The notes beneath the pieces are model-generated. The model was not told the origin of the DNA. It worked only from the letters and a program-made list of their open reading frames with translations, and made no database searches. Below, piece after piece: positions 31,508-56,162 of a DNA stretch of 64,000 nucleotides. Position numbers and translations under genes: made by a program. This stretch comes from Raillietiella orientalis (taxonomy: Eukaryota): assembly GCA_036172245.1 (NCBI GenBank), contig JAYWIR010000047.1, forward strand, positions 496,001-560,000. The letters are read 5' to 3'. Numbering within the stretch: the first letter of the stretch is position 1; the number at the start of each line of letters is the position of its first letter.

Positions 31508-32669
31508 CACTCGCCACACCGCGATTCTTTTCTGCTCGTCCACGTTTCACGATGGATCTTTTATCCATGCATTTTGGGTATCCGAACCTTGTTACGTGCG
31601 TGCCGTCTTCGCGGCGCATAGCTGGTCCGTCGACGTGATCTTCTTCCTCTCCTTTCATTCATGCGCTGCTCATATATAAGTAGCATGCACGTATACCTAC
31701 CCACTCCATCGAGGTAAGGCTTCGCGAGATGTTCTACACTGCACACCAATCGTCTGATGCAGGTACGGGGAGTTCTTCCGTCTCATCTGGCCGCCTGTCT
31801 GCTCCAGCGGTGTGCTGCCCCGCGCCACCATTTCGGATGCAACGAGCGCCAATCTGGGAACTCGGAACCAAAACCAATGAGCCGACGCTCCTCTATTTCG
31901 ATTTTCACTTCCGGTTGCACGGGGTATGCGGGGGTTGGGGAGGGATCGTCCAGACCATGCAGCCGGTGACGGTCATCTTCGGACCCCGAGTGCGTCGACG
32001 ATAGATGTGCAGCCTGCAAGATGGAGACGAAGGAGCAGCGCCTTCGCGGACCCACGGTCCGTACAGAACGCAAGGCGGTGCCTCGGAAGCGCCGGAAGGG
32101 AAAAGCATGGCCGAAGGCGAACGCACGAACACGCTTCTCGCGTGTTCGTGCGTGGCTGTTGTCCCAACGCCCCGCTGCCCAGCCGGGGCAACGGCGAACC
32201 GCTCCGGAGGCTGTTGGCGGCGACCAAGTCCCTTTCCCGGTTTGGCTGCGGATGCGCGAGTCAGCAGCAGGTTGGCGGAGCAGCGAGCCCCGCGTAGGCA
32301 AGAAGCCGATGCCCACCCGAACACAGCTCGCACGAAAGCGGCCCGCATGTGGCCCGCTCGGAACGCTTGCTGCGGAGGACTCTGCTGCCCGCGTTCATCC
32401 GCATCTTGTTGATGGGTGCTTTCCCTGTTGCCGGGACGGCAGCCTCTTGCACCGCCGCCGGGAGGTGGCCCTGTGCGGGCGACGCCTCGTGATCATAACG
32501 GGTGTCGCATCCTCCCATCCGTGGAGATTCGAATTCCCAAGTGACGGGGGAGATGTAGTGTGGTTTCTGACTAGCACATCTCTCGAGATGGCTGTCCTGG
32601 AAATCGGAGCAGCAAATCTACCATAGGCAACGAAAAAGCAAATGCTCATAAGACATCCGTTCACAACAG
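31508..32669. repeat. Composite repeat copy 1: flank A (31508-31566) + 942-bp core (31580-32521) + flank B (32523-32669)
   Basis: The core is a direct repeat of 55161-56102 (offset 23581; ORF-track peptides identical). A and B are reverse complements of 56104-56162 and 55010-55156. Confidence 0.97.
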
Positions 32670-33369
32670 AGGGAGTGAACCGGGCATCGGGGAGAACGGT
32701 TTTGAGGAATGAAGATGGCTTCGGAAGGTCGCAGGCGAAGCAGATGAAACGGTTGGCCGGTCTCTTTGCGTGGCAGGCGCTGCTCGCTTGCTGCTCGCGT
32801 GCCGGGGATGAACAAGGATCGGGTCGTAACAAGTTCGCTCTCCCGGAATGATCGCCTTGAAGACACACTCGGGGTCCAGGAAGCCGTGCGAGCGTTCGGT
32901 TCCATTCCACGGTTCACCCCGCAGGAGACGGGATCCCGCAGTAGCATGCTGGCTGGAGCATCACTGGCTGCTCACCTCTTGACAGACAACACCCACCCTG
33001 GAAGCTGACGCCGACACGGATGCCACATCTGGATGTCGGAGAGGGCTCTGGAAAGGTGTGGTTGTCCTCAGAGAGGTGCTCCATGGGCGCCTGTCTCACC
33101 GGAATTCTCCCGTCACGCGGCATCACCGAAGCCCCGTGCTCGCTGAAGATGATCGTTAACTTTACCTCAGTCCGACTCACGTTGGGGTCAGTTTATTGCT
33201 CTTTAAGCATCCACAATCGATCAAGCAAGAATAACGGGAACGAAAAAGGTGTGCGAGCACGTTCTGAACACTTAGATATGTCTTTGTTCTTAATCTTTGT
33301 TCTTGTTTGCGTCTTCTCTACCGGGCAAGGATGTGTCCACTGTATGCATGAAAAAAGGGATGGAGGAAG

Positions 33370-34100
33370 AGGATTATTTATTGCACAGCACTTTCTTTCT
33401 GGTGTCCTTGTGTGGGTTCCACTCGTCGTTCGGATTGCTGCATCTTCCTAGAGGTACTGCTGATTGTCCAAACTGCTGCAGCCTCGTGTGCCGATCTATC
33501 TCTTCGGGAGTACCGTCGACATTTCCCTGGCACTCACCTGAACTCCTCGTCGAGGCTTCGTCCTCCTGACGAGAATGCTTCTGACGAAGAAGAACCAAAG
33601 TGACCCTGGACGCGGAGTTGTATATAAGGGGGATGACGACTCCTCGACCAATGAAGAGTCCTCGAAGGATCTCGATTCCGATTTCCCCTTGAAGCTCCAT
33701 TGCTTGCTTGACCACCCCCATCATGTCTTGCAGGTGTAGAGACGAAGATTGTCTTGCATACTCCTGCAGGCAGGACGGCCTCCATCGGGTTGCCGATCCA
33801 ACATCGGAATCTGATGCCTCTCAGGGTCCTTCCGACACAGAACATCACCGCTGAAGATGGCAACTGCCTGGAGCAGCCGTCTCTTGAATGTCTTTGCAAG
33901 GGATGGAGATGGTCAGTTGGATGGGAGACAAAGCCATTCGGTCGGCTGCAGGTGCCGTCTGGATCTATAGACGCGCTCTGAAGTGTAGTTCCCTGGGAGC
34001 CCAGCGCTCGAACCTTCAAGGAGGTCAGATAGAAAAGGGACAAACACCCAGTGGCGGCGTTATCGCGACAGTCATGAGTCTGCGCTTTCACAAAGACCTT
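33370..34100 (-). mobile_element. Possible Tx1-like ORF1 remnant
   Basis: 'VVKQAMELQGEIGIEILRGLFIGRGVVIPLIY' resembles the Tx1 ORF1 'V.M.L...IPS.L.IG....Y' segment. No intact ORF. Confidence 0.3.
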
Positions 34101-35299
34101 GAAAGGATGGCGTGGCTCGCTGCAGCGGCACCACCTGAAAGCCTTCGCTGGTCGGGGAAGCCGCTCAGCCAGGACACACCCACGCTCCGCGGGGGAAAGG
34201 GAGAGGAAACATCGCGTCCTCTCCCGACTGGATGGAGGAGGAGCGAAACTGGTGACCGAACGCCCACGCCTCTGCCTTGTACCACGCGGAAGAGGAAAGT
34301 GGGCTTTCCGAAGCCCCCCTCTACTCCATTAGTGGCTCGAATTTCGCTTATCTCTCCGGCGATAAGAAAGCGATAGAGACGTGACCGACGCCCACGGAGA
34401 AGCCCAGGGACAACGACGCCATTCCCCTCACTCGGTAGGCTAGTCTGAGGAAGGGGAGCTTTGCGTGCCTCACCCCCGTGAAGGTTCCTCTCTCCATCCT
34501 CTCTGGCGGGTCACGTGCTCGCGCATGCGCATGAGAATCGGGGCGTGGGGCAGTGCGAGTACGCACCGGCCTTTCGCTGGATGGATGGGAACGCCTGACT
34601 GGACACCCGATTCCCCCTCCCTTCGGATGGATGAGGGAGAGCGCGCCGACCACACGCACATTGCGCTGGCCTGCCGGAGGGTCACCCGCACCGCCCTTGC
34701 ACGCAGTTGTGCCAACGCAGGTCCTCCTCCTGGGCCAAGGGCCTTGCGGCGGTCCTCAGATGCCGCACCCGATCTCTCCCTTCTCGTCGGAGGCGGAATC
34801 AACCCGTCTCGGGTTGCCGCTGCCTGAGCTCGTCCGCGGAGGCGGCGAGCGTAGCCGAAGTCGCCTCCGGACACGGCCGTGGTTTCAGCCACCGCTCGGA
34901 TTCGTCGGCGCAGTAGACGAACAACGTTCCTGGAAGGGGCAACGGGGGAAATCCCGAGGATCGCAGCAGCGTGGGCCACCCCATTCGTCTTCCCCTTCGG
35001 CCAATCAGGCCAAGCGAGGCATGCGATCTCGTGCCCAGGCAGAGGAGGATCGCCCCCTCCGCGGGAGGGTCCGTAATGAGCGATACAGCAGAAGGGATGC
35101 CGCGGAATTGGCGCTGAATGAAAACGTTAACGAACGAAGGCTGTGCACGTGCCGCGCGAGCGGGCAGTGTCGGAGGAGCCCAAGGGGTCACTGGAGGCGT
35201 GCCTTTCAGCGGAGCGGGCTACACTAACCAGGTAACGGCATTGATAAGGTCTGACGCGGGGGGAAGACGGGGAGGGGGACTGAGGTGTTCGGGGACCCT

Positions 35300-37250
35300 C
35301 GCATCGAACGAGGGAGATCCCGAATCCCGTTTGAATGAGGCACCGCGAGGAGAGTCCGGGTGGCTCTGCTCTTCCGGTAATTCAGTTATCCCGATCTCCA
35401 TTATCGAGTCTAGATGGACACGGACCTTCCTCTTCTCCTGAAACCCATTCATCTGCGGTTTCATTTGCGAGCATTCACATCCTTCGAAAGGGGCAGGAAA
35501 ATCTCCACTCCTTGGGAACTGGCTGGTTGCCGCAAGCGGTCGTCTCGAGACGCCGGGACTGTCGAGAAGGTCTGGCTGCGAAACGCGAGACCGAAGGCTA
35601 CGGTCCTCTGTGATGCGCCGGATGGGTCCTTTCTTTTCAACCCCTTCTCTCCGCCTCCCCACACTCTTTCCCATCCTACCCATCCTCCACTTGGTACCAT
35701 GTGGATGCGGAGAACGGTCTCTGGGAGAGAGGAAAACAGCCCTGAGTTCGCCGCTTGGACTGGAAGCCCTGAGTTCGACACGGAAAGGTTTCGCCCACGT
35801 GCCGCGTATTGACCTGCGTGAATTCCGGCATCCTGAGGGACCAAAATTTCATCTTCTGGAGGATTTCCACCATGTGGATCTGGAGATGCTTTGCGCGAAG
35901 GACTTGTGTGTTTCGCGCCGGGACAGAGTCTAGGTCTCCTGATGCTGGAGCGAATGGAGCTATAGTTCCAGTTTGGAACACTTACCCTTGTGGCAAACCT
36001 CTGCAGCACCGCCTGGTGCCAACCTGCACGTCTTCTCGTCCAGCAGACCACCGGTAGCGTGGGGCTTTCGTTCTTCCTTGCGCGCCATCCATGCAGTCTC
36101 ATCCACGGAGGACTGCACTTGAGGCAGGTGGCCACGCTGGCGAGGAAAAACGGATGGATCTCGTACTGCCCCGCGAATGAAAGTGCCTGTGGGAGAGCAT
36201 CCAGGAGCCAAGTCCCGAACAGATGCGATGTTTCCCGTACGCTCATAACAACAACTGCACGCTCCGGGAGATCCTGGAAGATCCCGCGAGGAGTGCGTGG
36301 GCAGGCAGAACCTCCCTCACCGCCGCGCTGCCTCCCTTAGGGAGCACATGGACAGCAGCCTCACGGCTAGATGGGAGGTTATTGTGGACATCTCCGGAAG
36401 GAGAAGAGGCCCGGGAGAGTGGACGACAGGCCAGCTCACCGACCCTGCGACCCCGAGTCCTCTACCTCATGGACTTTTGCTACTGGGTGTGCTACTAGGT
36501 ATTTCGGAGGAAGATCTGCAGTGGCCCACGGTGATCATGAACACCGCATTCTCCCCTTGAAGTGGCAGGGGTCGGCATTGATGCTGCTGCACTGGGGTCT
36601 CCCGTACAACGCCCGCTGGCATCACTGGACACAGGTGTGTGTGGATCCAAACTGTGCAAGGTGCGGGGAGCGGGAATCCCTCCCGCACCTCCTATTGGAC
36701 TGTGTTGCCCTCCGACCCCTTTGATGACGCTTTTTTGCGACCCCTGGAACCCCCGGCGGCAATGCCAGACAAGTTTTAAAGACCTTTTCCTGCGCAACGC
36801 CCTCACTGCCGGCCGCATCCCTCTCTAGCAGCACTTTGCTGCTCACGTGGCGGGATCGTTGCTGCTCCATGCAGCCATCTATTCTGCAGAGCAGAGAAGG
36901 CCAGAACGACAGGGACGCCATCTATTCTGCTGTCCTCTTCATGAGAACAGCGTCAAGATGGCCCCACCTCGGAGTCTTGAAACAGGAACTTGCCGGCATC
37001 CTTACAAGGTTGTAGAGGACACCCTCCAGCACACAGTGATCTCTTCCCGAACCACCCACCCCACCCCCAATTTTTGACGGTACGCTTTTTGTTTTATTTT
37101 TTTTCTTCCTGTTTGTCTCCCCTTCCCCTGTGCTGACGAAGCGAACTCTACTGGCCTGTACCCAGCAGGCTCCTTTTCGTATTCATAAGTAACGTGCCAG
37201 GAACAAATGTCCTGCCAAGCCATCTATGTTTATTTTGTAAATAAACGACC
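35300..37250 (+). mobile_element. 3' half of an L1/Tx1-like LINE ORF2 with 3' UTR
   Basis: C-terminal zinc finger 'LLHWGLPYNARW...DPNCARCGERESLPHLLLDC' (ORF 36371-36724; typical zf-RVT CxxC...HxxxxC), then a pyrimidine-rich 3' UTR and AATAAA at 37240-37245. Frameshifted. Confidence 0.8.
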
Positions 37251-37326
37251 CAGATTGACCAGGTCTCAACCATGTGGATCTGCACTCAGTGGTCAGGAGG
37301 GGGCATCTTGGCCTCATTTACGTGGG

Positions 37327-37888
37327 TGAGGTCAATACCAGAGGAGATTCTCTACGATTTCCTCCTCCTTGTTGCCCCGCCGAAGACTCGCTGGAAGTTA
37401 GTACTCACCCGAAGTGCTCCCCCGGTGTCTGTCACGGTCTCGCTGGATGCTGGAGAGCATCGCCACCTTCCTCTCCATTTTTTTTTTTTTCCCCCTTCGT
37501 ACCAGTGAGAGGAGGGGCTCGAAGTTCTCGGGCACCCCGTCGTTCATTGTCCCAGCACTTTTTACGGAACGGGAGGCACCGCCCTGCCCCACCTCCGGTC
37601 TCTCTTCTTAGCCGTTCTTGCCCCGACTCTGCCGCTGAGTCTTCTTGGGTGGGCAGGCGGCAGCGACGACGACGGCGACTCGACTTTCGCTGCAGGGCGC
37701 CTCTCTGCGGCGAGGGCTGGAGGTGCGCAAGCAGCGATGCAAGGAGACTCTCCTTCCTTCCTCCACGTCGCGCACCTCGTGCCCATCCGATCCACGGCGT
37801 CGCTTCTTGGGGAAGGGGAAGGAGGTGGGGCGCCCCTTGTACGGGAAACAGATAGGAGAAAATCGTTGGGGAGCCTCAGGCAAACCCC
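37327..37888 (-). repeat. Copy 2 of the ~560-bp inverted duplication (partner 15047-15607)
   Basis: Direct comparison with the reverse complement of 15047-15607. Confidence 0.95.
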
Positions 37889-37889
37889 G

Positions 37890-38660
37890 ATCGCCTTCCA
37901 GGACGAGGCAGCGACTTCAGCAGGATGGCGAGGTGGTGGACAAGGCGAAGAATCGCCACTGCCTCCCAGCATTTACTCCATGGAAACTTGGAGAGCGACA
38001 ACGGGAACGCCGCCACGAATTGAACGAAGTGGCTTCGCATATAGTCTGGGTTTTCCTTTTTTTTTTCTTTTTCAGCCACGCCGGCTGGAAAAACCTGGAT
38101 GCGCGTAGTTGGGGGCGATGGGGAGCGTGACCCTCGCAAACGTGGGAATCGCAGCAAGACCGCATTCTTCTCGAGTCGGTCGTTGAAGTGGAGGCCGAAA
38201 TGCGCCGCTGGCATTCCACCCCACTGGTCTCCGGAGATTCGCCACGCCGGAGACCGAAACGCAAGGAAGGAGGGATGCGTACCCTGGGGAGGCCAGGCAC
38301 GGGTGGTCGTTCGAGAGGCTCCGTTCGCAAGGACCCCATCTCCGCGAGCGGAGTCCTGCCGCCAGAGGTTGCGTCCGGCGGAACCGGATGCGGACAGCAC
38401 GTTGGAGGTCTTCGGCAGCACCAAGTGCCGCGACTGTGGTGTCGCGACAAGTGGCTCAACGACCCAAGGGGGAAGGCGAGGAGTTGAGGACTGCAGCGCT
38501 GCTGAACTGGCTGAACTCCCAGGTGGCGGGATTCTACGCAGAGGGTCTCAAAACCTTCGTGGCTCAAAAGCCTCGTGGCTTCTTCCACGGTGTCAAAAGT
38601 ATATGGCAAACGATGGTGACCACGTAGAAAAGCGACATAGGGATGTACGTGTTTCGAACC
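37890..38660 (-). mobile_element. Tx1-like ORF1 remnant
   Basis: 'TFDTVEEATRLLSHEGF...VQPV...RIPPSLRFG' resembles the RRM-like region of Tx1 ORF1. It continues into the duplicated 560-bp block. Confidence 0.45.
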
Positions 38661-39099
38661 CACCAGTACATTTTCGTTCCTCTTATTTGTTCTTCCTTTA
38701 TATCCAATCGGCCCCTACCTTTGAAGTGCTCCTCGCACATGTACTATGCTGCAGACTACAAAGCATAAGCGATTTATATTCTACAATATACGTACCACTT
38801 ACGCTATGGTGTGCGAAAAAGTAAGTAGTATACAATAAGCGGCATAGTACGCCGGACAGGTGTAAGCACATCAGTACAAGCGGCGCGTTCTAGCTCATAC
38901 GTTATTCACGGTAATGTCCAAAGAATCACTATGGTGAAGTAGTGTACCATAATGGGTTTATGTACAATGTAAAATGAATGATTGCTATTGCGATTTGATA
39001 TTGCGATTGATATTGCGATTTTTCGCCTCGGTCTGAGGAGTCTTTTCCGGATAGCCCACAAAGAATTCATCATGCTAAGCCTAAAACGGAAGCACTGGA

Positions 39100-40000
39100 A
39101 TTCAGCTCAGGGAAGAAAAGAAAGGGAAATGGAAAGGCGGGAAGAAAGAGGCACAGTTACTAGTTGTCGAAACAACGAACAGGAGAATCCAGTCACTTTC
39201 GTGTCACATGTAGGAAAAAAAATAGCGTAAGTAGCAAATGAAATGCGAGAGGTTACGCTGTTTTTTAACTCTCTCAGAGAGCTAATGAGTTCCCGGATCC
39301 CACTGAGACAGTTTGCTCCAGCTCCCGAGCATCCCAGACAACTACTGCTGATGCCAAACTGCAACGCCTACTAGTGGGAGCGCGTGGTAGGACTTGCCGA
39401 CGTCTCAGATAAACCTCGAGAGGACCTTGACGCAGAAGCAATCGATTCTGTCGAAAGTCCGACGCCGTTTGGGAGCCAATTGGGGAAAGGTGGGGGGGAA
39501 GGTTGCAAGACTGGGATGCAGCAGCATCCTCGCTTTTACGTGCACGGGCGTGGGAAGCATCGCCCGTTTGCAAGAGAAAACAGAAAATGCTCTTCGACAG
39601 GTGGTCCTCGGAATCATTAAGCAAGCAGGACTGCATCTTAGCAGCTCAGGACCTCCCAACCCGTGCGATCTCGCCAGCAAGGGTCGCCTAAGAACACACT
39701 TTGAACACACTCCCGAATCTCGGCAGAGAGGAAGCCGCAGAGGAGATACCCCCTAGGGCAGGCAGACATTTCTGTCCGCGCTGGCGGCCGTGCGGCTGCG
39801 GGGTCTCTGCGCGTGGCACCGACCGTCGCGGGTTGGAATCCCGTCCGGTGCGAAGCATCGACTCCAAGAAAGAAGTGGGGGTGCGTCGTGTGGGTTTCGA
39901 GTTTACCTCCGCAAGGTGGCGCTGGTTGGTTCCTTGGTTGGCTCCGGGTGCGACACTGGTGGAAGGCAGATGCTCCCGTTGACTGGCTGGGATCAGAAGT
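39100..40000 (-). mobile_element. Decayed LINE ORF2 C-terminal fragment
   Basis: 'RPLLARSHGLGGPEL' (cf. LP...GGLGxP) followed downstream by 'CLGC'. Weak. Confidence 0.3.
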
Positions 40001-42435
40001 CGACCCTTCGGAGTCCTTCCAGAACATCAAGGAGTCCTACGGGGTTCCACCCTTCTGTTCGTGCTAACGGAGCCGCTCCTCCACCCCTTTGAGTGGAACT
40101 CTCCATCGCGTACCTCGGGGTTGCCTCTCCAGAGGGTAAGGAGAGTGCCTCTCCCTTCAGCGAAATTGGGGAGCGTCCCTTCGGGGTTCTCTTCGGAGGA
40201 GGAAGCTAGGGGAGAATCTTTTCTGGGGAGTTCCTCCGAAGAGAACGAGGAAGTGGTGGTTTCCTCGGAGTACCCCTCCCAAGAGTAAGACGAACGGACC
40301 CCTTCCTCCGGAGCCTTCCTGGATTCATAGGGTGGTCCCTCCGGGGTCACCTCCTATAATTTGAAGAGTAACACGTACCCTCGGATGGCTTGAGCAGAGT
40401 CAAAGAGCTTCGCGACCCCACCCCACTCCTAAGGAAGTTCTTGAGTACTTGGCGAACCAAAAAAAAAAAAAGAAAACTGGAAAAGAGGGAAGAAACCTGC
40501 AGGGCAGGCTCTGGCTGATCCCATCGCTTAGGAGCGCAGCGCCGAGGCTGCGAGGGCTTCTTGAGTCGCACCTGAGGTTTCCGCAGACCCTCCCCCCTGT
40601 GAATGGCTCCGGAGCACAACTCGCAGGAGACCGCGTGCTGTTCCATCGAGGAAACGACCTCTTCAGCAAGTCACCATGGAAGTCCTCGGTCCCTCGAGGC
40701 TGTCGTGTGGCGCCTCAAGTGGACCGAGCGCTGAATCCGGGAAGAGAGATGAATGAAAAGGGGGAAGAGATGGACGTCTGGGAGGGTAGTTTTCGGGTGT
40801 GACCTGGGCGCGCGTCGCCGCCGCCTCGACCTGCAATCGATGCCAGTATCTCCCCGTCCTCGCGCGCCCCCCTCTGCCCAGGGTCTGCTGCCGACTGCTC
40901 GCTCGGTCTCCGAAGCAAAGGCGGGACGCCGACAGTGCCATTGCGGTGTCGTTTCTGCCCCTCCAGGCGCGTGGCCACCACTGCGCTGCACGTGCAACCC
41001 GACCTCTCAATCACCGCGGCTGTCTGGGACCCCTCCGGAAGGGCCATCGGCGGAAAATTCGGAAAGGAGGGCTCATCCGAACCCCCCCCCCCCCTCTTAC
41101 TTTGCTTTCTTCCTTCACGTCCGTGAGGGAAGAAAGCAAAGTTTCCTGAAACAAAGCCCTCCCCAGGTCGGAGAGCGCGCGGCTGCGCCTGAGACCGGCA
41201 CAGGCAACGCGGGTGCTCGAACCCTGTCGCGCCTCGGCAGGGGAGTTTTCTGGACCCCCGGAAATGTGAGCTGGAAGCGAACTCCCGCAGCCATGCCGTA
41301 GTCCGGAGGAGGGACCGTGCCGACTCGCGGGCCGGCTTACGCGTGGAGGTCGGTGGCAAAGAAAGGGGAGAGCTCAGGGCAAACCGTCCCGGATCCTCCC
41401 TTCCCGGAGGGACCAGCCCCACGAGACCTTCCCCCGACGAGCGACCGCCCATCGGACTGGCAGGAGTCCCCGCTCGGGCGCTCGGGATTCGGGAGCTCCC
41501 CCACACGTGTGCGCGGGCTCCGAGGAAGGCGCCGCATCCCGGCAGCTCGCGTCCTGCGCGTGTGTCTTGTGGTCGTTCCCCACCCCCTTTCCTCCACGAG
41601 GGGCCAGTTCCCGCTTCGTGCTCTGCTGCCCCCAGCAGGCACGTTACAGAGCTGTTCTAAGGCAGCAGAGGGAGCCACCAAGCTCTCGGGAGAAAACCCT
41701 GAGAGGTCCGGTCCTCCCCTTCCGGCTGCTCGGAGTCTCCGGGTCGGCTCGGAGACCGTCCGATTTGGCCTGCAGGCAACGGTGGCTTCTCTCTTCCTCG
41801 TGGAGGGAAGACAGCGCGGTGTTGAAGGAAGGGGAGGGGAGAGGGGGCAGGGACTCGATTCCGATGGTCCAGATGGAAGAGAAGATGCAATCCAATTGCC
41901 TGGGGACATCGAAACACATCGAGCTGTTCCGAGAAAGCGCTAGAGGACAGGGACGGTCAGCCGGAGCGCCCAGCTCCTGGTGCGCGTTTCTCTCTTTTTT
42001 TTTTTTTCCTGCCCATCCGCGCCCGCGTGTGATTCGGCCCTCGGCTCTCCTTTCCTTGACCAAGTTCCAACACCAGAGGTTTGGAGCCTCTTGCCGCCGA
42101 TGCTTGTTTCCAAGTTGTCCTGGCAGCCGGCCGCGAGCTGGCGAGGACTGCCTCATCTTTCGCGGCAGGGTTTGCTTGTCTTTCCCTGCGGGAGACCATC
42201 GAGAACTTTCCGTTTCTCCAAGGGGGGTTCCTTCTGTGGGAAAGGCCGCCGAGATCCACGGTCTTCTGGAAGAAGAGCTCAAGTGATTAGCGGCAAAGCG
42301 GCTCAAGTGATTACCTTCGCAGACGGCAATTTGTTCCGGCAGCAGTCCACTCACTCATCCTCCGGAAGTCGCTCCCACAAGGCATCGCGCTTTGCCCCAT
42401 TTCTCTAGCGCGAGTGTCTTCGCCGCACCTTGGCT

Positions 42436-43027
42436 GCTGACTTCCAGGTCACGTTCATCTCTCGCTCCCTCGCTCTCCTCTTTTTTTTTTTTTTTGGTTC
42501 GCTAAGTACCTCAGAGCCAGTCGCGTGCCTCGCGGCGCAAGTGGCTCTTTTAAACACACTGTTTTGTTTCCACGCCTCTCCGCCTGCGGCAACCCGCAGG
42601 GGGGCGTGTAATTCGGGCAATTCTTCAGTTCTCTTGGTTTTTCACCCGGATATGCCGGGGCATTTATTACTAAAATTTTGTGAACAAAATTTTATAATAA
42701 AGTCTTAAATGTTTTTCCAGGCAGAACACGTGGTTCGGACTGTCTTGGAGCAATTGTCTTTACCGACCCTCAGGTCAGTGAGGTCCCCTTCGCCGGCGAA
42801 GGGGGAGGGAAAACCACAAAAAAAAACAGACACGAAGGGAGGGCCATTTTTTTACGGGAAGGGGAGGGAAGGGAAGGGATCACAGTTCGCCGCGAGGGGT
42901 CCTCTGCATACGAGTTTGGATGCGGACAAGTGCCGGTCTAATAGTCCTTAGCCGGGCCCATCGGGAAGCCTTCTCCATGGAGCTGGCTGACTTCCAAGTC
43001 ACGTTCATCTCTCGCTCCCTCGCTCTC
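42436..43027 (-). mobile_element. ~508-bp poly(A)-tailed insert flanked by 42-bp direct repeats
   Basis: GCTGACTTCCA(G/A)GTCACGTTCATCTCTCGCTCCCTCGCTCTC at 42436-42477 and 42986-43027 (1 mismatch). T15 at 42481-42495 lies 3 bp from the left repeat. Confidence 0.6.
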
Positions 43028-45116: not shown

Positions 45117-45251
45117 TTTTGTTTTTGTTTTGTTTGGTGGTGGGTGTTGTGTGTGGGGGTTGTTGTGTGTGTTTTGTTTGGTTGGTGTGTGTGGGGGGGT
45201 GTTGTTTGTTGTTGGGGGGGGGGGGGGGGGGGGTTGTGTGTGTGGTTGTTT
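45117..45251. repeat. 135-nt G/T-only low-complexity tract with a G20 run
   Basis: No A or C on the + strand across the interval. Confidence 0.9.
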
Positions 45252-46449
45252 CTCCTATTTTTATGTCTTATCGGGGTCCAGTCTATGCTAGCAACCGTCT
45301 CCTTCCGAGCGGAGGCTCACCTGCCGCGCCCACTCGTCGTCCGTGTCCTCTTCGTGAACGCACCGCTGCGATTTCCCGAAATCCTCCCGAAGGGAGGAAG
45401 GCGGAAAAAAACCGGTTCCGAAAATCTTTGCCTGTCGTGATCAAATTGTGCATTTCTTCAACAGCTCAGGAAATTCCGCAGGCGTTGATCCTTCGAGAGG
45501 GATGCTAGCAATGATTCACTGGGAAGTATTTTCTTTTTTTTTTTTTTTCTATTTGAGATGTTGCATTTTTTTTTTTTTTTTTCTCCCCAATAACTCGACA
45601 TTTTTAGCAGAATAAGATCAGCTAAAGTACTCTTTATAACAGTTGGATTTTTTCCCTTAAAAAAAAAAAAAAAAAAATGTTAACGACTGAATTCCTGATT
45701 AGCAGTGAAATGACCTCTGTGTTGACAGTCAGAACCAGACGCTGTATCCACCGGGATGGCTAGAAAAGAGTCAGTTTTTGATTTGATGTAACCAAAGTGG
45801 ACCGAGATTTCATGCAAGAATTGCGCATATTCGATGAACCTCTGTATTAAGGTTTCAAGTTATATATGGAAGCCGGATCAGAAAGTGGTATATTTGCCAT
45901 CATGATGACGTGTAGAAAACAGGAGACTTCCTGGGACACTACTAGTAAGTGCTTCGGGTGTGTTTTTGAGTTCGGATTTGTTTTCGTGAGCTGCTCTGGG
46001 ATTGCTTAGCGTAGAATCGACGCGGATGTTTTTCTTTCTGTGAAAAATTCTGAAACATTTTGCCGAGTGCATCTTGACGGATACATGTTAGCGTAGGGTT
46101 TGTCGCTCTTACTATTAATACCTATTCAGGATAGGGATTATACACATAATTCAGAACATCAATGTAAAAAAAAAAAAAAAAAAGTATGGCAACGGAAAAA
46201 ATGCCGATTTTTGTGGAACCCTTTTTTTTTTTTTTAATTCAGTGGTGTCTCCATTTTAGGAACATCGGTCATGGTAGTCGTGCTGCTGCTAGCAGCTTTG
46301 GGCATCAGCTGCACCTCATCGTTTCAGTTCCAATACAGCGGTGAGAAAATTGGTTCATTCGAGATGGGAAGGGGGGGGAGGGGAGATAGAAAGAGAGAGA
46401 GAGAGAGAGATTTTGTTTACACTTTCTTCGCCTCCAGTAGTCGTAACCT

Positions 46450-48050
46450 CAGCGGTCGCAAAAGCTTGCAGGTCGTTTCTCTGCCGGAATGCATCCAGCA
46501 GCTCCTGTCAACAGATTTTGACCTCAGTTATGTTCGCACCCGCTTGAACAACGCGTTCCATCTGCGCCACGTAAGGGAATTTCGCACTTTTCTTCCCACG
46601 TGCGGATCCGTCGCCACCCTGAAAGGGGAACTTCCGTCTTTCTGCTCCTCGTCCCGTTGCCCACACAGTCGGAAAGACTGCGAACGCCTTCTCGAAAACT
46701 TTTCAGCAATCTTCCCGTCCCGGTTTCCAAGTAAGGTGTGTGCCATGGGAAAACACATCCGTGGAGTGTGTGTCGTAAGCAAACAGTGAGGGAACGCGGG
46801 AACAGTGCTTTCGTCTTCGTTAGTCGAAAACCCGTCTTTCGTTGCGAGGGAACAACATCCTCTGGCAACCACATCTTGAAAATGAAGGGATCGTGTTGCA
46901 AGCATGCACTGATTGCTGCGTGCCACTGCCACAAAGTGACTCTTAGTGTTGCGGGCATCCCAACGAATGGGATGTTTTCCTACGAAGAACCCTTCGCGGA
47001 GGTCCCGTGCGTTTCGTCTGCTCCCTTAGAGGAGGAACCCCTCATTCGAAGATCAGGCCAACGAGAGGTCCTTGCATTAGGTCCAGAGGGCGTCCACGTT
47101 GACTCGGCTTCTGTTTCGGATCCTCAGCAGCAATCTCCAGGAAAGGTGGGACTGCTTGCTCGAGTAAGTGGCATCTTAAACGGGACGTTTCCGAAATAAA
47201 ATCAGAAAACCAGCGAGCCCGAATTTTGGCAGGAGCTGAAGGGACTCGAAAACGCATTGAAATATAGAGACGAGCAAAAGTAATCAGCTGTTACATAATT
47301 AGAAATGTGAGAGTTTATATTGGAATTAACTTTACATACTGAAGACACTGAGCGGAGGAAAGTGGGAGAGGAAATTGCGACAAGCGTGAGTAACAGAGCA
47401 TTTTCTGTGTCATATGTGACGGTTTTCTGAGGTGCTCGTTCGTGTGGATGTGCTTCCCTTTGGTGGTTACTCCCCAAGGAGCAGATGTAATGATTGAATG
47501 ATTGAATAGCCTAGCTCGTTTAATGCCAAATAATGATTAACCAAGTTACCGGTGAGCAACTCGCAAGTGAAGAGCGCATCTGCCCCCCTCCCCTCCACTT
47601 GCAAGGAGTTCTGTGAACGGTTTTAAATGTTTCGAAACTTCACGATCGTCCAGATTCACAGCAAACGTACTTTTTCAAATCTTCCTGGATACCAAAGAAG
47701 CCCTCCCAGAGCGGTTAGTTTTTTTTTAATGCCTCCTCCGGTTGAAAGTAAGGCTTTTCTCCACGTGCTGGAGGGCCAGATGCGTCCCGACTGTGAGCTC
47801 CGTCAGACCCAGTTGTTTTTGAGTCTCAAGAAATTCCTCCCTTCGATTCCTTCTGGCATGGAGCTTGCTATCAATCCTTTTCCGAAAAGACGTTTTCCAC
47901 TGTTTGGTGCTGAAGCCAGTTTGGTGAGCAGAGTCCAAAGAAAAATCCTGGGCTCAGTGTCTTGGAAGCGCCACTCAGATCGAGAGTAGAGGGGAAAGAG
48001 GAAGGGGACTTTGGACCTAAAATGGCTGATTCGCATGTTTGGGAGGAGCG
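46450..48050 (-). mobile_element. Decayed LINE RT fragment interrupted by an AT-richer segment (~47200-47620)
   Basis: 'EWRFQ...IFLWTLLTKLAS...GKRL...EGR' and 'QHVEKSLT' loosely follow the WRPISLL/LANRL/GR/EKAFD order. Confidence 0.4.
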
Positions 48051-50999
48051 TTTCGTCCTCGTAGTGATAACCAGGGGAATGGCAGGCACTCTATCCTCGC
48101 TATCGCGGGCTGTGGCCTAACGAGAGAGGCCCCACCGCATCTGTCGCCGCTGCTGGAGAAGTCAACTCTGCCTACTGGGGAAGGATGGGGGGAGGGGGAT
48201 CGCTGGCGAGCGAGCGAAGTGAACAAGCTGCTGAGCTCTGCATGTATTCTTATAGGATTCTGCGTGGGGGCAGCAGCAGCTCCGTTATTTCGGAAAACTC
48301 CCAAGGTGCACGTCCTTACCCACATGCAATTTCCCCATCCTGGTCAAATGGACCTTTTTTTCTCAGCCTCCTAACCTGCAACGTAGCCGACGCCTTCCCT
48401 TCCTCCGCACGCAGTTTTTTTTTTTTTTTTCTTTAAAAAAAAAGGGGAGGAGAAGGAGGGCAATAGGGAGATATAGTGCTTGCGAGACATGCCTCGGGTA
48501 TCCCTCGAAGTTCATTGTGTCTTTATCCACTACCCCTGTAGGTGTAGGAGGCAAGCGAAAAGAAATGACATGAATCGTAGGTGGCGAATAATGACACATA
48601 AGTGCCGCACCAACGGAAAGTCCAGGACGGAAAGAGAGGAGAGGGAACCTTACGGCTTTCTCGAAGTGGCGAAGGGTCCCAGAGAAGGACTTGCCACCTC
48701 CCTTGAAGGAGGAAAGCCACCTGAGTGGTTTTCTTTCTTCCCGACCCCTCCTTTCCCTCGTCCCTCTCATTTCTTCCGATCAGGGGGAAGTGGCACTTTT
48801 CCTTCCTGTGCGTTCCCTCTGCAGCGGCCACTCTCTCAGCCGCTACCGTCTTTTCCTTTTCCTTCGAGTCCCGTTCTCATCCTCCAGAGACGTCTTAACT
48901 GCTTCTCAGGTTTCATGCCGGGCTCTCCCCACGCGGTCGTTGCCAGGAAGGTGATGCTGCTCCCTATGAGGTAGCGGCAGGCAACTTGCCGGAAACGAGA
49001 AAGGGGAGGGATAAAGGGGGTGACGGAATCATTCGTTCGCCCGCAAAGCGACACGGTCAGCAACTCAGAAAGGCAGACAAGTGTGCGAGAGAACGGAGCA
49101 GTTGTTTTCGACCTCGCGAGTTTAGACCTCGCGTTCCTCCTCTTCTAAAGCTCCTCACCTTGCTGTCTCCACGCGGGTAGGCATCATATCCACAGCCTCT
49201 TCTCCAACATCGCGGAGAAAAGAGGACTCCCACTCTTCTTCCGTCCCCATGCGCCCCGACACGTTGCTGTGGACCCCTTTGGAGCATCCCTTGCGTTCCA
49301 TTTCCCATCAGGTGCATCTCATCTTCTAACTCTCCAGGAACGCCCTGGAAGAGGTCGCTGATCGCTCTTTGGCTCTCAAAGAACCCCCTGTATCCTACCC
49401 TCCAAGTAGGGCAGATCATTCCCCTCACAGAGAACTTTTCTTTCCAGATGGACCTTTGCAGCAACCCTCTCGAAGGTCGCTCGGATCGACTATCCTTGAG
49501 AATGGAGGACGAAGGTGGCTTCCCGTGGACGCGGGGGAGGAAATCGACACCGCCTTCTTTCCCTTTCTCCGGGGCGCGGAGCCCAAAAGCAGCGGACTGA
49601 AGCTCGCCGTCCCTGGAAGAGAACGCCTAAGAGATCTGAAATCTCCCGGTGGCGCAAATCTCTGCTATCCCCCGATGGACTGCGACTACGAGCCCTCCAA
49701 AGAGTCCCAGAAGAGGAACAACAACGATGGGTCCCGGGTCAGGGGCACGGGCCTCCAGCTCTTCTCCATTGCGGACCTCGTCCACAGGAACATCCCTTAT
49801 TTCTGGAACAGAGAGACGAGCCGGCGGACGTGGGGCCGGGGAAGCAGCAGCCTCGGCATGAAAAGGACAGGTCATCACCAGCCTACCAGCAAGTACAGCC
49901 CTCATTACCAGTGGATCGGTCTGGGCAAGAGAACAACGACTCCGGCGGAGGAGGAGGGAAGGCAGCGACTGGCGGCCGAACGTTCTGGAGAGACGGCCAT
50001 CCACTCGTTCCGCTCCGGCATGGCGACAAAAGCGGAACGTCGCAGTCCCTGGAACCCCCCTTCCCAGGGAAGCAGGATAAAAGGAACGGAAGGGAAGGAG
50101 GATGAGGATGAGGATGAGATGATCTCAAGACCTCATCCCTTGGGGCGATATGGGGAGTACAGCCGTGAAGAAGAGGGCGGTGACGAAGAAGACGACTTTC
50201 CAGTCGACCCCGACGGGTCCTTCCGGACGCTGCTGCTCGACAGGAAGCCCGGTGTTCTCCCCTAATCACCGTCTTCTGAAGAAACGGGCTCCTCCTGGAA
50301 CCCTGAATGAAGAAGAAAAGGAAAAAAAAGAAAACAAAAGTCCGTCAGTGTCTCGGGAATTTTCACCGAGTCAGTAACGATGGGAAACTTCATAATCCTC
50401 TCATTCTCATCTCATCTCCTTTACTCCACATGAGGGTGTGCCACCCTCATGCGGGAAAGGGAGCCACACGCGTGCTCAAGGTTCTAGCGCCTTAGAAGCG
50501 GGGAACACAAGCCGTCCCATTCCACTGGGGAGGATGGGGAAGGAGTTTGAGGGTGCCAGGACTCCTCTGCTGACGTTAGCTTGGCCTGTCTCTTTGGAAA
50601 AGGAAAGGAATGGGTTCTCGCAAAACCCGCCTACTCTTTGCCTTGGGAAAGGGAGCCACAGTAACGCAGGCCGAGTACCTTCGCACATTCGTTCGTGTTC
50701 GACAGGGGTGAACATGGTTCCTGGATTAACCCCTAGGAATACTCAGCCAACAGACCTCGCTACCGCTCTTCCCAGGGGAAACACTAGGATCTGGAGAGGT
50801 CGAAGGGGAGCTTGAGCCGCCTGCGAGAGACCTCAGGTGGTGCGCCTCATCAATGGACGTCCGAGGAAAGAGGGGGGGGGTCGAGCACAGGGCAAGGGCG
50901 AAGGAGCGAGCCGAAAGTGGAATCAGTAGCCACGTGTCTGTGATGCGGGAACAAATTCCAGACGCAGGGGTCGAGACGAGCAGCGCGAGCATTGCTCAG

Positions 51000-53900
51000 A
51001 GGGCTCCTTGTCATTTGGGAAGCTCAAGGAAAGCTGGTGTAACCATCGTCTCTGCAACGGTGTTGGAAGCTGAGAAGGACTCTGGCGTCCTGCTCGCTTT
51101 CCCGTGCATCAGGAGGAGATTGCAGGAGGCTCCCATCGGATTTTGGACATATCTTCTTCTGTGAAGATGTGGAGGAGGCGTATGGGAGGAGTGACCACAA
51201 ATGAGCGGAACAGCGCTCTCGTTTCAGGTGACCGGGGAGACGACCTCGACCATACTGAATGCATCTCTTCCCTCTCCCCAAGGAAGCACTCCTGACCTCC
51301 AAGACGATAGCGACAGACACGGCCCAGAAGGTCCGGATGCAGAGTCGTGTGATCCCATCCGCATCCGTCTCTCTGCCTGCTCAGGATCGGACTCTCTACC
51401 CTATACAGCTTCTTCATCCAGCTCCTCCTCTCCCATCCGTTTGCTTCCCTGCAATTTCTAGGGAATCTGAAAGCGTTTGCTTCTTCAGATGCGTTCGAGT
51501 TCTCTCGAACAAACCGGAGGGCATCGACAAACCGGCGCCTTGCATCTGAAGCTGCTGAGTCGGGAAAGTTCTGTAATATTCATCCTCCTTTCTCCAACTC
51601 CAAGAAAGAAAACATCCTGTGGTGAGCATTTGTTGGACTCTCTCGGCAGTACCCGACCTCTCTTCTTGTTCTTGCTTTCGTTCCTCCCGTCATCCATGAA
51701 ACCACTTGGTGCTGCAGCTCACATCACCGGGTTGCGTCCAACTTCATCTACTACGCCACCAGTTTAGCCTGGCGACAATCCTTTGGCTGACCCTGATATT
51801 CTGGGATGCCTTCTGGATCCTGGAAAAGCAGCATTTGGGTGTGTTCCTCTGCAAGCCGTTTCAATGGGTGCTGCCCTTCCTCCATGGGACTCTGCCCTCT
51901 TGACTTGAGCCCGGCTGAGGGTCCTTTCAAAATGCCGAGAAAGAACACCCCTTTTTCATTCTCCTTCACCTCTAGATATCTGCGTTTCTATTAGAATAAA
52001 CCTGGAGCATTAGTGAGCGCAAGCCTCCTGGTACAAAGCGCTTGCCTTTCTTGTCGCAATCGTATCTCGAGCCTCAGGTCGTTGGCTCCAAGTTACACAT
52101 TCCCGGAAAGCTCGGCAGCGGTCCTTCTAAGTAACCGTATCAAATTCCAAAAGATGCTGCCGCCCTCTCATCTCGTTCTCCTCGGCTCAGTTGAACCCAA
52201 TTGCATTACGTTCCGGTTCTCATCCCCCATTTCCCAACACTAGAAGGTCCCCCCCCCGTACCTCCCTCCCACGCCGCTCTCATCAGCGCCCAGCACTGCA
52301 GGTTGTGGAAACGTTCCAGTCGCTTCCCTTTTTAGCGAATCCTTTTACAGCTCCTTTGTTATGGCGGATTCGTGTCCTCAGTGAAATTTATGATCACGAA
52401 TCCTTCTGGAACTCCCTCCACTACAACTGAGAAGAGAGCGCCGTCTTTTCCGTCTGCATCGCTTGTCAAACCCCGTTATCCAAGATCTGGTTATCGTCAT
52501 TCTGAAAGCAGCCGAAAGGGAAACGCTTTATTGAAGCAGCTTCATTAAGAACACATTTGTTTCCATCTTCGAGGCAGCATAGATAAATCGATTCTAGAAC
52601 CAGGGATCCAGAACTTCAGCATCCCGTTAAAGAAACGCTAACCATCTTCCAGAGTCTCTCTGCAGGTAAACCAACACATAACATTTTATTGGGACCAATC
52701 AGCTGATCTTGCCAGAGCGCCACCTTGGCTCTGGAACAGCGCTTATAGAGCTTTTAGATCAGCCATGTCGGAGAAATCCACTTGGTTGGATTCAACTTGC
52801 TCACGGGAGGTGTCTAGAAAGTTCCGGATATGAAATCAGCAACCAGGACTGGGACGGAGGCTTTTAACATGGGGTTACTTGAGTTCAGTTTCCTCAGCAC
52901 GCCGCCTACACTCGGAAACCCGTGCACCCAGGGCACCGAAGGAGAGAGTTTTTCACATGACCTTAAGACTTTGCGTCTCATAGTAGTGCTGGAACACCTC
53001 GAATTTCATCCGTTTAGCGGCTGGAGCTTCCACAAAAGAGCCCTGCTTACTTTCAGAAGGGAAGTTGATATCTACTATGTCCACATGAGAAGAAGACGAG
53101 GCGATGACATCCAATCTTAATGGATTGTCGGTTTCAGGAGTTTCTTTGCCTTGGCTTCATCGACTCTGGTTCCATTCTTGTGTTTACAATTTCTTCAGAA
53201 GAAGAATATGGTCTCTTGGGATGCAGTTCTTTGTTCCACTACCTCTAAATACATATAGCATAGTTATGCTGTAGTATGCAGATCAGGGCATCCAGGCAGG
53301 AGATCTCTGTGGAGGTTCGGCACTGTTGGCAAGAAGCTACACCAGCAATCACACCCCAGACCGCGCTTCACATTTACATCTGAAGGAAAGACCAAGGTGT
53401 CGGAAGCAACGATGCAGAACGTGGCTGAAGGTTTCCTTCGGACACATGCACTGTGTCGACACTGTTTTTGGAATCCGGATGCTATCGGAAGCTATTGAGA
53501 GTCCGTTTTTTCCATCTCGACTGATGAATAAACCACCATTCGCAAAAGCTGTAACCTGTCACATTGATTGCATGGGATAAGATGAGAATGAGGTGCAGTC
53601 CTCTCTGGCCAGGCTTGGCACTTTCGCACAACCAGAGCGCCGTTGCAGATTGCGGGTGCAATGCTTCTGCGAATCCGTCGTCCGCTTTTCCTTTCGAATA
53701 GACATCGTGTCCTCTCGGGTTTTAAGTTTTCAGCGAGGAGTTTCCAGTGACTCTGAGCGAACTTGCCGCTTCCTGTTTCTTCCTCATCTGAAGTGTGCAC
53801 CTTCACATATCGAGTTCACGTTTCATCACATATCTTCAGCAGCCTTCCTACAAACCGACCAAGATTCTTCTTGCAACTCCGAACACTTCAGCATTCTTAT

Positions 53901-54550
53901 GCTTGTTGGCAGTCGCCTTTATCCACGAGTTGTATTCCTCCGATAGGCTACCGCGGCCAGATGGGAGCTTCCCAACAGGCACAGAGTACGCTCACGTGCC
54001 CAAACAGTGAAGAAAGACACGAACTCTCTTGTGAAGACGAACATGAGTCTGAAAAACGAGAAGAGTAGCGAAGGAATCAGTTTCTCTGGAGATTTACAGA
54101 TATGGTTGGCTTTCATCGATGTTGGCCTCAGTTCCATTCCTAGGAGGCATAGGTGGAGCAATGCCCGTGTCAGTTAGCATCTCATGAGACCATGCAGATG
54201 AATTAAAATCAGACAAAGGACAGCAGAAGTCCATGTGTGCAATATTTCTCCTTCCCCAAGTAAGCATTCACATTTCTGGTCCCAAAGAATTCTTTCAAAA
54301 GCGTACGGCTTCCCATTGCGAAGACAATGGGCAGCGTACCTCGTGCCGATCTTTCGCTTTTTCCGAATTCTCCTTGTACCGCTTTCCATCTTAATGTAGC
54401 CGAAGAGACGCAGAAGGGATTCGTTAAAGAGGCCGCTGCTTTATCGAGCTATTTGGCACTCCCTACCGACTTAAGGGAAAATCTGATTAAATTCTTGGGA
54501 AGCTAACGACTCCCATTTCTTCCGGTCGCAAAACTTCAGCAACGTTTCCT
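51000..54550 (-). mobile_element. Degenerate L1/Tx1-like LINE ORF2 relic
   Basis: Ordered remnants: 'STYAS' (cf. NVYAP), 'GSGKFAQSHWKLLAENL' (cf. GxGxWKLNxxLL), 'KETPETD' (cf. KSPGPDG), 'ADLKAL' (cf. DxxKAFD), 'DADG' (cf. YADD), 'ENEKG(G)' (cf. K..GGLG). Confidence 0.6.
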
Positions 54551-55009
54551 CAGTTCCGACTCTCTCACTCCCGTTTTTCTTTCGGTGTATTTATCTGGTG
54601 CTTCTCATCTTACAAGGGTTGCCATCTCACAACAATAAACACAAAATAGGGAGGCTTAAGATGCACAGAGAATGTCATCCAAGGAAGAATTTATGGTTCG
54701 AAAAAATTTTTTTTTTTTTAAAAAAAAAGGTTTCCCTTCTTCTAAAAGATGTTTTCATTCTTCATGTTGACATTTCGCAGAACATAAAAAAGCACACAGA
54801 ACTATTGTGTCCATCAGTAGTGATTTCATAATGCCATTTCTTCAAACATGGGATATTTTGCTTCAGACAGTCTCAGTTTCCTTTAATTTTATTAAGGTGA
54901 AGCGCGATATCCACTCTTCAAGAGAAACAAATAAATTAAAAGATCAAAACGTGAGAAAGCTTTGAGATTTCCCTTTTTTTCCAATCCGTTGACACCTTTG
55001 TGTTTGGGC

Positions 55010-56162
55010 CTGTTGTGAACGGATGTCTTATGAGCATTTGCTTTTTCGTTGCCTATGGTAGATTTGCTGCTCCGATTTCCAGGACAGTCATCTCGAGAGA
55101 TGTGCTAGTCAGGAGCCACACTGCGTCTCCCCCGTCACTTGGGAATTCGAATCTCCTTTGATCCGAACCTTGTTACGTGCGTGCCGTCTTCGCGGCGCAT
55201 AGCTGGTCCGTCGACGTGATCTTCTTCCTCTCCTTTCATTCATGCGCTGCTCATATATAAGTAGCATGCACGTATACCTACCCACTCCATCGAGGTAAGG
55301 CTTCGCGAGATGTTCTACACTGCACACCAATCGTCTGATGCAGGTACGGGGAGTTCTTCCGTCTCATCTGGCCGCCTGTCTGCTCCAGCGGTGTGCTGCC
55401 CCGCGCCACCATTTCGGATGCAACGAGCGCCAATCTGGGAACTCGGAACCAAAACCAATGAGCCGACGCTCCTCTATTTCGATTTTCACTTCCGGTTGCA
55501 CGGGGTATGCGGGGGTTGGGGAGGGATCGTCCAGACCATGCAGCCGGTGACGGTCATCTTCGGACCCCGAGTGCGTCGACGATAGATGTGCAGCCTGCAA
55601 GATGGAGACGAAGGAGCAGCGCCTTCGCGGACCCACGGTCCGTACAGAACGCAAGGCGGTGCCTCGGAAGCGCCGGAAGGGAAAAGCATGGCCGAAGGCG
55701 AACGCACGAACACGCTTCTCGCGTGTTCGTGCGTGGCTGTTGTCCCAACGCCCCGCTGCCCAGCCGGGGCAACGGCGAACCGCTCCGGAGGCTGTTGGCG
55801 GCGACCAAGTCCCTTTCCCGGTTTGGCTGCGGATGCGCGAGTCAGCAGCAGGTTGGCGGAGCAGCGAGCCCCGCGTAGGCAAGAAGCCGATGCCCACCCG
55901 AACACAGCTCGCACGAAAGCGGCCCGCATGTGGCCCGCTCGGAACGCTTGCTGCGGAGGACTCTGCTGCCCGCGTTCATCCGCATCTTGTTGATGGGTGC
56001 TTTCCCTGTTGCCGGGACGGCAGCCTCTTGCACCGCCGCCGGGAGGTGGCCCTGTGCGGGCGACGCCTCGTGATCATAACGGGTGTCGCATCCTCCCATC
56101 CGAGGATAAAAGATCCATCGCGAAACGTGGACGAGCAGAAAGGAATCGCGGTGTGGCGAGTG
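55010..56162. repeat. Composite repeat copy 2: rc(B) (55010-55156) + 942-bp core (55161-56102) + rc(A) (56104-56162)
   Basis: Direct comparison with 31508-32669: core in the same orientation, flanks swapped and reverse-complemented. Confidence 0.97.

What the first reader, a model, noticed from the sequence alone, without database searches (positions are those of the whole stretch)
31508..56162. 942-bp cassette occurs in both orientations between the same flanks (candidate invertible segment)
Seen: copy 1 reads A-core-B (31508-32669) and copy 2 reads rc(B)-core-rc(A) (55010-56162). The two 1.15-kb composites are therefore inverted copies, except that the core is flipped in one. The core appears identical over 942 bp, while the flanks differ at about 7 of 206 positions. 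The core starts and ends with ATCCG. Both flanks end in TCC/GGA next to the core, each within a near-palindrome (GGATCTTTTATCC; GGAGATTCGAATTCCC). Left junction fillers differ (ATGCATTTTGGGT vs TTTG), as do right ones (T vs A). rc(A) and B share CGC(G/A)GTGTGGC, so the flanks are weak inverted repeats of each other. Inference: either a site-specific or repair-mediated inversion inside a mobile unit, repeated orientation-independent insertion into a preferred target, or a mis-oriented collapsed repeat in the assembly. No recombinase gene is visible in the window.
Basis: partly seen in the sequence, partly recalled or inferred. Interest (0 to 1): 0.75.

Follow-up and report, generated by a model that had tools for sequence, protein, structure and literature searches.

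The report
Local duplicate with a flipped middle
A 1.15-kb piece of non-coding animal DNA occurs twice, 22 kb apart, and in one copy the middle has been turned round; it looks like the ordinary scar of a one-off break-and-repair accident later smoothed by copy correction, not a genetic switch.

Summary
An identical 942-bp core lies twice in direct orientation (31580-32521, 55161-56102) between flanks A and B, which are inverted and 3.4% diverged. The 210-Mb animal genome shows only these two copies and no empty A|B site. The switch reading fails its tests. The core ends share only a 3-bp inverted match (TCC/GGA). The two states are not reciprocal products (956 vs 947 bp inside, scarred junctions). 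There is no TSD or TIR, and no PF00589 recombinase match in the genome. The identical core is not special here. In 664 kb of the contig, 7 of 286 repeat pairs carry exact tracts of 150 bp or more, including a 515-bp tract between two copies of a LINE family whose other scored copies are 74-83% alike. Best reading (0.6): inverted local duplication, one error-prone micro-inversion of the middle, then gene conversion of the long core, while the 59- and 147-bp flanks, below the ~200-bp efficient length, drifted. A Drosophila subobscura breakpoint is a published parallel. No reads were available, so an artefact is not excluded. Earlier notes on this genome describe similar converted duplicates; a word search found no flipped core.

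The parts
31508..31566 (+). Flank A, copy 1 (59 bp), ends in TCC
31567..31579 (+). Junction filler of copy 1 between A and the core (13 bp)
31580..32521 (+). Core, copy 1 (942 bp, 62% GC, no Pfam match; TATA-like word at 31673 and donor-like word at 31712)
32522..32522 (+). One-base filler (T) between core and B
32523..32669 (+). Flank B, copy 1 (147 bp), starts with GGA
32670..55009 (.). 22.3-kb spacer: GC-rich, decayed repeats and unique DNA, no Pfam match above the curated cut-off
55010..55156 (-). Flank B, copy 2 (inverted; 5 differences from copy 1)
55157..55160 (+). Junction filler of copy 2 (TTTG)
55161..56102 (+). Core, copy 2 (identical to copy 1, same strand, so flipped relative to A and B)
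56103..56103 (+). One-base filler (A) between core and inverted A
56104..56162 (-). Flank A, copy 2 (inverted; 2 differences from copy 1)

Best explanation
The structure is a relic of three ordinary steps in non-coding DNA. (1) A ~1.15-kb segment A-core-B was copied about 22 kb away in inverted orientation. (2) In one copy, or in the fragment while it was being inserted, the middle was cut out and rejoined backwards by error-prone end joining at a 3-bp inverted microhomology (TCC/GGA). This left small gains or losses at the junctions and made the two cores a direct repeat. (3) Ectopic gene conversion, which is active in this region, kept or made the 942-bp cores identical up to the breakpoints where homology ends. 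The 59- and 147-bp flanks are too short for efficient conversion and drifted to 3.4%. SHOWN: the geometry, two copies only, balanced but scarred breakpoints, unequal divergence, and identical tracts in neighbouring repeat pairs. INFERRED: the order of events, the repair pathway, and conversion as the cause of core identity. UNDECIDED: which copy holds the ancestral orientation. No function is indicated.
For: Only two copies of core, A and B in 210 Mb and no empty site. Both orientations use the same two breakpoints (TCC| and |GGA), as a balanced inversion would. The interiors differ (956 vs 947 bp) and do not equal the exact reciprocal product. Identical middles with diverged margins recur locally. 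15089-15588 is a 500-bp exact tract with 5 and 4 differences in its margins. The LINE at 36252-37272 has 0 differences over 515 bp but 49 differing columns in the next 207 bp against a copy 64 kb away, while 36 other scored copies are 74-83% identical. 7 of 286 repeat pairs in 664 kb have exact runs of 150 bp or more. Efficient conversion needs about 200 bp of identity and is favoured by short distance (PMC3924818, passages). A micro-inversion that turns an inverted duplicate into a direct one is described at the D. subobscura O7 breakpoint (PMC7584159, passages). Inversions commonly carry flanking gaps (PMC5829575, passages).
Against: Conversion must have reached within 1 bp and about 13 bp of the two core ends, whereas the 15-kb/37-kb pair kept unconverted margins of about 20 and 41 bp. 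At 3.4% divergence two clean 30-bp ends have a chance of about 0.13 (my arithmetic), so this is only mild. A single recent mis-oriented copy explains identity and flip in one step. No outgroup and no reads are available, so neither polarity nor reality of the junctions is shown. Only 39 of 5681 candidates were scored, so a closer LINE copy elsewhere is not excluded.
Confidence: 0.6

Rival explanations
1. One recent mis-oriented repair event. An old collinear inverted duplicate (3.4% diverged) broke in one copy. The broken end invaded the other locus at the TCC/GGA microhomology on the wrong side, copied the core in direct orientation and returned (microhomology-mediated template switching). 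The core is identical because it is a fresh copy.
For: Explains flip and 100% identity in one step. Scarred junctions with 3-bp microhomology. In yeast, complex insertions of adjacent pieces of one locus in inverted orientation are ascribed to microhomology-mediated template switching (PMC11724301, abstract and section 19).
Against: Both switches must land within about 13 bp of the positions that keep A and B whole and adjacent. Frith and Khan argue that adjacency of fragments favours breakage and rejoining over template switching (PMC5829575, passages). Fold-back stems at two junctions (6 bp) are at background level, 15-17% of random sites.
Confidence: 0.2
2. Assembly or amplification artefact: a chimera or a mis-resolved repeat placed a copy of the core backwards at one locus.
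For: 100% identity of the core is what a collapsed or chimeric repeat would give. No reads could be laid (one search listed no runs).
Against: All four junctions have distinct sequence, with different fillers, which a mis-join at an identical repeat does not invent. The flanks are diverged and the outer neighbours are unique and unrelated, so the loci are not two alleles. The contig is 1.34 Mb, and a 942-bp repeat is short for such an assembly (inference).
Confidence: 0.08
3. The core is a mobile element that inserted twice, in opposite orientations, at the centre of a TCCGGA palindrome in a pre-existing duplicated 206-bp A|B target.
For: Both inserts sit at exactly TCC|GGA. Young identical insert plus older diverged target fits the divergence contrast. 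This genome has target-specific LINEs: the 35898-37272 family sits antisense at one position of another repeat in many loci (earlier notes).
Against: No other copy of the core, and none of its ends as a family. The 5' end has 2 hits at up to 2 mismatches. The 3' end has 13 further hits at up to 3 mismatches against 6.6 expected, and none of the 7 examined shares flanking sequence. No TSD, TIR or poly(A), no coding match, no empty site. It needs six new junctions instead of four.
Confidence: 0.05
4. A working orientation switch. The core, which holds a TATA-like and a splice-donor-like word, is flipped either by a site-specific recombinase or by cassette-type gene conversion anchored in A and B.
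For: Both orientations exist between the same flanks. TATA-like word at 31673 and donor-like word at 31712.
Against: No 10-20-bp terminal inverted repeats (defining feature per PMC5903667, passages). States differ by 9 bp and one base. No PF00589 match in the genome. Flanks are short and diverged, unlike the identical 2-kb repeats of Ogataea (PMC5720833, passages), and anchored conversion would have homogenised them. The two words occur at about 0.3 per kb each in the island. The recognisable genes lie 4 kb (PKA regulatory subunit, my reading) and 8 kb (choline transporter ORF) away.
Confidence: 0.04

Closest known systems
Drosophila subobscura O7 proximal breakpoint (PMC7584159; passages read)
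   Same: Intergenic duplicates of 95-98% identity in which a 2-kb micro-inversion makes one duplicate direct instead of inverted; filler DNA at a junction; end-joining or replication-based repair invoked.
   Different: There the micro-inversion borders a 9.9-Mb inversion and the ancestral state is known; here the micro-inversion lies inside one copy of a 1.15-kb duplicate, the core is 100% identical, and polarity is unknown.
Localized rearrangements in human DNA: opposite-strand non-tandem duplication, inversion next to or in deletion, conversion (PMC5829575; passages read)
   Same: Each step proposed here is one of the recurring classes listed there.
   Different: Here three classes are stacked on one 1.15-kb unit; no reads confirm it.
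Interlocus gene conversion and concerted evolution (PMC3924818 and PMC3924837, passages; PMC3924815, whole text)
   Same: Long nearby identical tracts; conversion limited by the length of homology (about 200 bp) and disrupted by large structural differences.
   Different: The homology break is an internal inversion rather than an insertion or substitutions; conversion is inferred from tract patterns, not from polymorphism data.
Bacterial invertible switches (fim, hin, Cdi; PMC5903667, passages)
   Same: A roughly 1-kb non-coding segment found in two orientations between the same flanks.
   Different: No 10-20-bp terminal inverted repeats, states not reciprocal, the two orientations are at two loci rather than alternating at one, no tyrosine recombinase match.
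Yeast mating-type switching: Ogataea flip/flop and Saccharomyces cassettes (PMC5720833, passages)
   Same: Two loci about 20 kb apart with shared inverted flanks.
   Different: Flanks are 59 and 147 bp and diverged, not identical 2-kb repeats; no genes in the core; no evidence of switching.

Membership tests
Recombinase-driven invertible segment | Terminal inverted repeats of about 10-20 bp | tested here: not met
   Longest inverted match across the core ends is 6 and 5 bp, the background mode; only TCC/GGA lies at the breakpoints.
Recombinase-driven invertible segment | Conservative, exactly reciprocal states | tested here: not met
   Interiors 956 vs 947 bp; predicted and observed ends differ.
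Recombinase-driven invertible segment | Tyrosine or serine recombinase available | tested here: inconclusive
   No PF00589 match in G000 and none among 188 window ORFs; serine recombinases and divergent or intron-split genes were not searched genome-wide.
Recombinase-driven invertible segment | Both orientations at one locus in reads | not testable with these tools
   No run was listed.
Homology-driven flip/flop or cassette switch (Ogataea, Saccharomyces MAT) | Long identical flanking repeats | tested here: not met
   59 and 147 bp at 96.6% against identical 2-kb repeats.
Transposable element (TIR, LTR, non-LTR) | Dispersed copies | tested here: not met
   Two copies only; extra 3'-end pattern hits share no flanks in 7 of 7 examined, of 13.
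Transposable element (TIR, LTR, non-LTR) | TSD, TIR, TG..CA ends or poly(A) tail | tested here: not met
   Four TSD tests gave one offset 3-mer; end-to-end inverted matches 4-5 bp; no A-run of 8 or more in the core; core ends are ATCCG, not TG..CA.
Transposable element (target-specific insertion) | Empty target site elsewhere | tested here: not met
   0 matches to A-end + N{0,30} + B-start in G000.
Local segmental duplication with internal micro-inversion | Low-copy nearby duplicate with a balanced internal orientation change | tested here: met
Local segmental duplication with internal micro-inversion | Ancestral single-copy state in an outgroup | not testable with these tools
   G000 has no relatives here; no metagenome match to the A-end pattern.
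Interlocus gene conversion | Identity tract significantly longer than the flanking divergence allows | tested here: met
   0/942 vs 7/206, p = 5.5e-6; parallel tracts of 500 and 515 bp nearby.
Interlocus gene conversion | Shared polymorphism between copies or orthologue comparison | not testable with these tools
   One assembly, no reads, no relatives.

The most novel reading that the evidence does not exclude
An animal two-cassette orientation switch. A promoter-like 942-bp segment is stored in both orientations 22 kb apart, and repair anchored in the shared flanks A and B (or a crossover in A that swaps the two states between loci) toggles its direction at one locus in somatic or germ cells, without any recombinase.
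Probability: 0.03. Interest if true: 0.8.

Novelty: new member of a known kind. Interest (0 to 1): 0.15.

Why it matters
As read here it is a tidy single example of known processes: an inversion breakpoint that marks the edge of a gene-conversion tract, with short flanks left to diverge. It is a minor addition to the evidence that this genome homogenises nearby repeats. If the switch reading were true it would be a programmed DNA inversion in an animal without a recombinase, which would be a major surprise, but the sequence tests run here go against it.

Tried and rejected
Reads: none was listed for 31300-32900, so none could be laid; this is no evidence either way. Metagenome scan with the A-end pattern: 0 matches. 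A and B as weak inverted repeats: not above shuffles. TIR-element readings (A-core-B as a unit; the whole 24.6 kb as a unit) and core-as-LTR: no TSD, no TIR. Crypton-like insertion through ATCCG (family features recalled, not from a call): both copies carry extra bases on both sides, so they are not precise products, and there is no PF00589 match. Third hit to the core's 3' end at G000:C33:2143209: about 30 bp only, no homology in 4 kb. The looser pattern gave 13 non-self hits against 6.6 expected from a third-order Markov model and 2 for the reversed control; 7 of the 13 were examined and none shares flanking sequence with the core. Fold-back signatures to decide which copy is derived: 6-bp stems at one junction of each copy, background 15-17%, so undecided. 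Bias of flank changes (6 of 7 are C/G in copy 2): p = 0.125. My first idea that the LINE at 35898-37272 was broken by a local inversion was wrong: in other loci it sits inside the repeat that is intact at 39776-40500. Outer neighbours as markers of an insertion site or a staggered-break inversion: unique DNA, no marker. Rfam: 0 matches in the window. Literature searches gave the parallels cited and no listing whose title or abstract start describes this exact layout as a switch; the library lacks most subscription journals. The avian IGH preprint (10.64898/2026.09.05.749481; abstract and section 5) concerns many gene-bearing inverted duplications and is not a close parallel. PMC2943611 was seen as a search listing only. 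No supplements were read.
Full report
Setting. The window is G000:C47:496001-560000 of a 210-Mb genome in 491 contigs; the contig is 1.34 Mb. It is an animal. Pfam finds a choline transporter (21825-23336), a cyclic-nucleotide-binding protein (61317-62024) and WH1 plus PBD domains (62796-63628). The best named relatives of the transporter are arthropod proteins, mostly at 35-39% identity. Between about 24 and 58 kb lies a GC-rich island (47-62% GC) with no Pfam match above a curated cut-off among the ORFs scanned (188 of 193 ORFs of 100 aa or more; 24 shorter ORFs around copy 1, chosen from the 92 listed) and no Rfam match.

Observation. Confirmed. The core is an exact 942-bp direct repeat (31580-32521 = 55161-56102). 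Flank A (59 bp) and flank B (147 bp) are inverted between the loci, with 2 and 5 differences, all transitions. The contrast 0/942 vs 7/206 is significant (Fisher p = 5.5e-6), so core and flanks do not share one simple age. The claimed weak inverted likeness of A and B is not above chance (84% of shuffles score as high).

Copy number. Searches of the genome with the whole unit, B, the core and 5.2 kb around each locus return only these two copies. The tool warns that counts are lower bounds, so I added pattern searches. The core's first 21 bases have 2 hits at up to 2 mismatches. Its last 21 bases have 3; the third, on C33, is a patch of about 30 bp with no other homology in 4 kb. A looser 3'-end pattern gave 13 non-self hits against 6.6 expected, and the 7 examined share no flanks. 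No empty A|B site was found.

Junctions. Both orientations start after the TCC that ends A and stop before the GGA that starts B, so the change is balanced, as in an inversion at a 3-bp inverted microhomology. It is not conservative. The interiors are 956 and 947 bp, and inverting copy 1's interior predicts ends that differ from copy 2's by nine bases at one side and one base at the other. The longest inverted match across the core ends is 6 and 5 bp, the mode for random pairs from the island. Bacterial invertible segments are delimited by inverted repeats of about 10-20 bp (PMC5903667, passages), and the Ogataea flip/flop uses identical 2-kb repeats (PMC5720833, passages). No TSD, TIR or poly(A) was found under four element models. 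PF00589 has no match in the genome, while it rang in 14 of 14 control genomes.

Why the core is identical. The same pattern occurs twice more in this window. The inverted pair 15047-15607 / 37327-37887 has a 500-bp exact middle and 5 and 4 differences in its margins. The LINE 3' end at 36252-37272, compared with a copy 64 kb away (L006), has 6 differences in the first 300 bp, none in the next 515 bp and 49 differing columns in the last 207 bp. The 36 other scored copies of that family are 74-83% identical (only 39 of 5681 candidates were scored). In 664 kb of the contig (0.3% of the genome), 7 of 286 repeat pairs have an exact run of 150 bp or more: ours and six others, two of which share a copy. 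One of the six is simply a 99% young duplicate, and some are LINE pieces that may be young insertions. The only orientation switches detected were our two junctions. Homogenised tracts are therefore common here and the flip is rare. Conversion is efficient above about 200 bp of identity and over short distances (PMC3924818, passages) and is disrupted by large structural differences (PMC3924837, passages). This fits a 942-bp core that is converted and flanks of 59 and 147 bp that are not.

Mechanism. Best reading (0.6): inverted local duplication, one error-prone micro-inversion of the middle, then conversion of the core. It needs four new junctions. Its geometry and local context are shown; the order, the pathway and conversion itself are inferred. 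The main rival (0.2) merges the last two steps into one recent mis-oriented template-switch copy, for which yeast offers a model (PMC11724301, abstract and section 19). Against it, adjacent fragments favour breakage and rejoining (PMC5829575, passages). I could not separate the two, and could not tell which copy is ancestral: fold-back stems are at background level and the outer neighbours are unique. An artefact (0.08) is not excluded without reads, though four distinct junction sequences argue against a simple mis-join. Double insertion of a mobile core (0.05) lacks every element feature tested, although this genome does have target-specific LINEs. A working switch (0.04) has for it only the layout and two common words, TATA-like and donor-like, each about 0.3 per kb in the island.

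Comparison. The nearest published case is the D. subobscura O7 breakpoint, where a micro-inversion explains why a duplicate is direct rather than inverted (PMC7584159, passages). The structure works like that scar, not like an invertible switch, whose defining features were tested and not met. Earlier notes of this scan describe several inverted duplicates with conversion elsewhere in this genome (not checked by me), and a word search for a flipped core found none. Verdict: real in the assembly, an ordinary kind of event, interest 0.15.

Noticed in passing
window 15047-15607 and 37327-37887: Second local inverted duplicate: 500-bp exact middle (15089-15588, 62% GC in 42% GC surroundings at the first locus) with diverged margins.
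   Followed up: partly
window 36252-37272 and L006 (G000:C47:597442-598469): Two copies of a LINE 3' end (weak zf-RVT match) share a 515-bp exact tract next to a ~76% identical tail; likely an ectopic conversion tract.
   Followed up: partly
window 39776-40500 and loci L006-L034: The LINE family of 35898-37272 sits antisense at about position 39950 of this second repeat in many other loci, so the window holds an empty target. Matches earlier notes on target-specific LINEs.
   Followed up: partly
window 59912-60059 and 61878-62030: A 90% identical direct copy of a late exon of the PKA regulatory-subunit gene lies upstream of the gene's start.
   Followed up: no
window 42436-42477 and 42986-43027; 42635-42989; 43906-44395; 33550-33760: A 42-bp direct repeat adjoins a ~355-bp dispersed repeat; two further dispersed repeat families lie in the spacer.
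   Followed up: no
G000:C33:2143209-2143230 (L119): About 30 bp resembling the exact 3' end of the core; expected count 0.016 under a Markov model, but no further homology. Probably chance; unexplained.
   Followed up: yes
window 1-64000 and G000:C47:296001-760000: Composition alternates between AT-rich gene-bearing blocks (30-37% GC) and GC-rich islands (55-67% GC) with CpG ratios near 1 in the window.
   Followed up: no
window 14174-14482: Weak Pfam match to Rolling stone (PF21534, E 2e-5, below cut-off).
   Followed up: no
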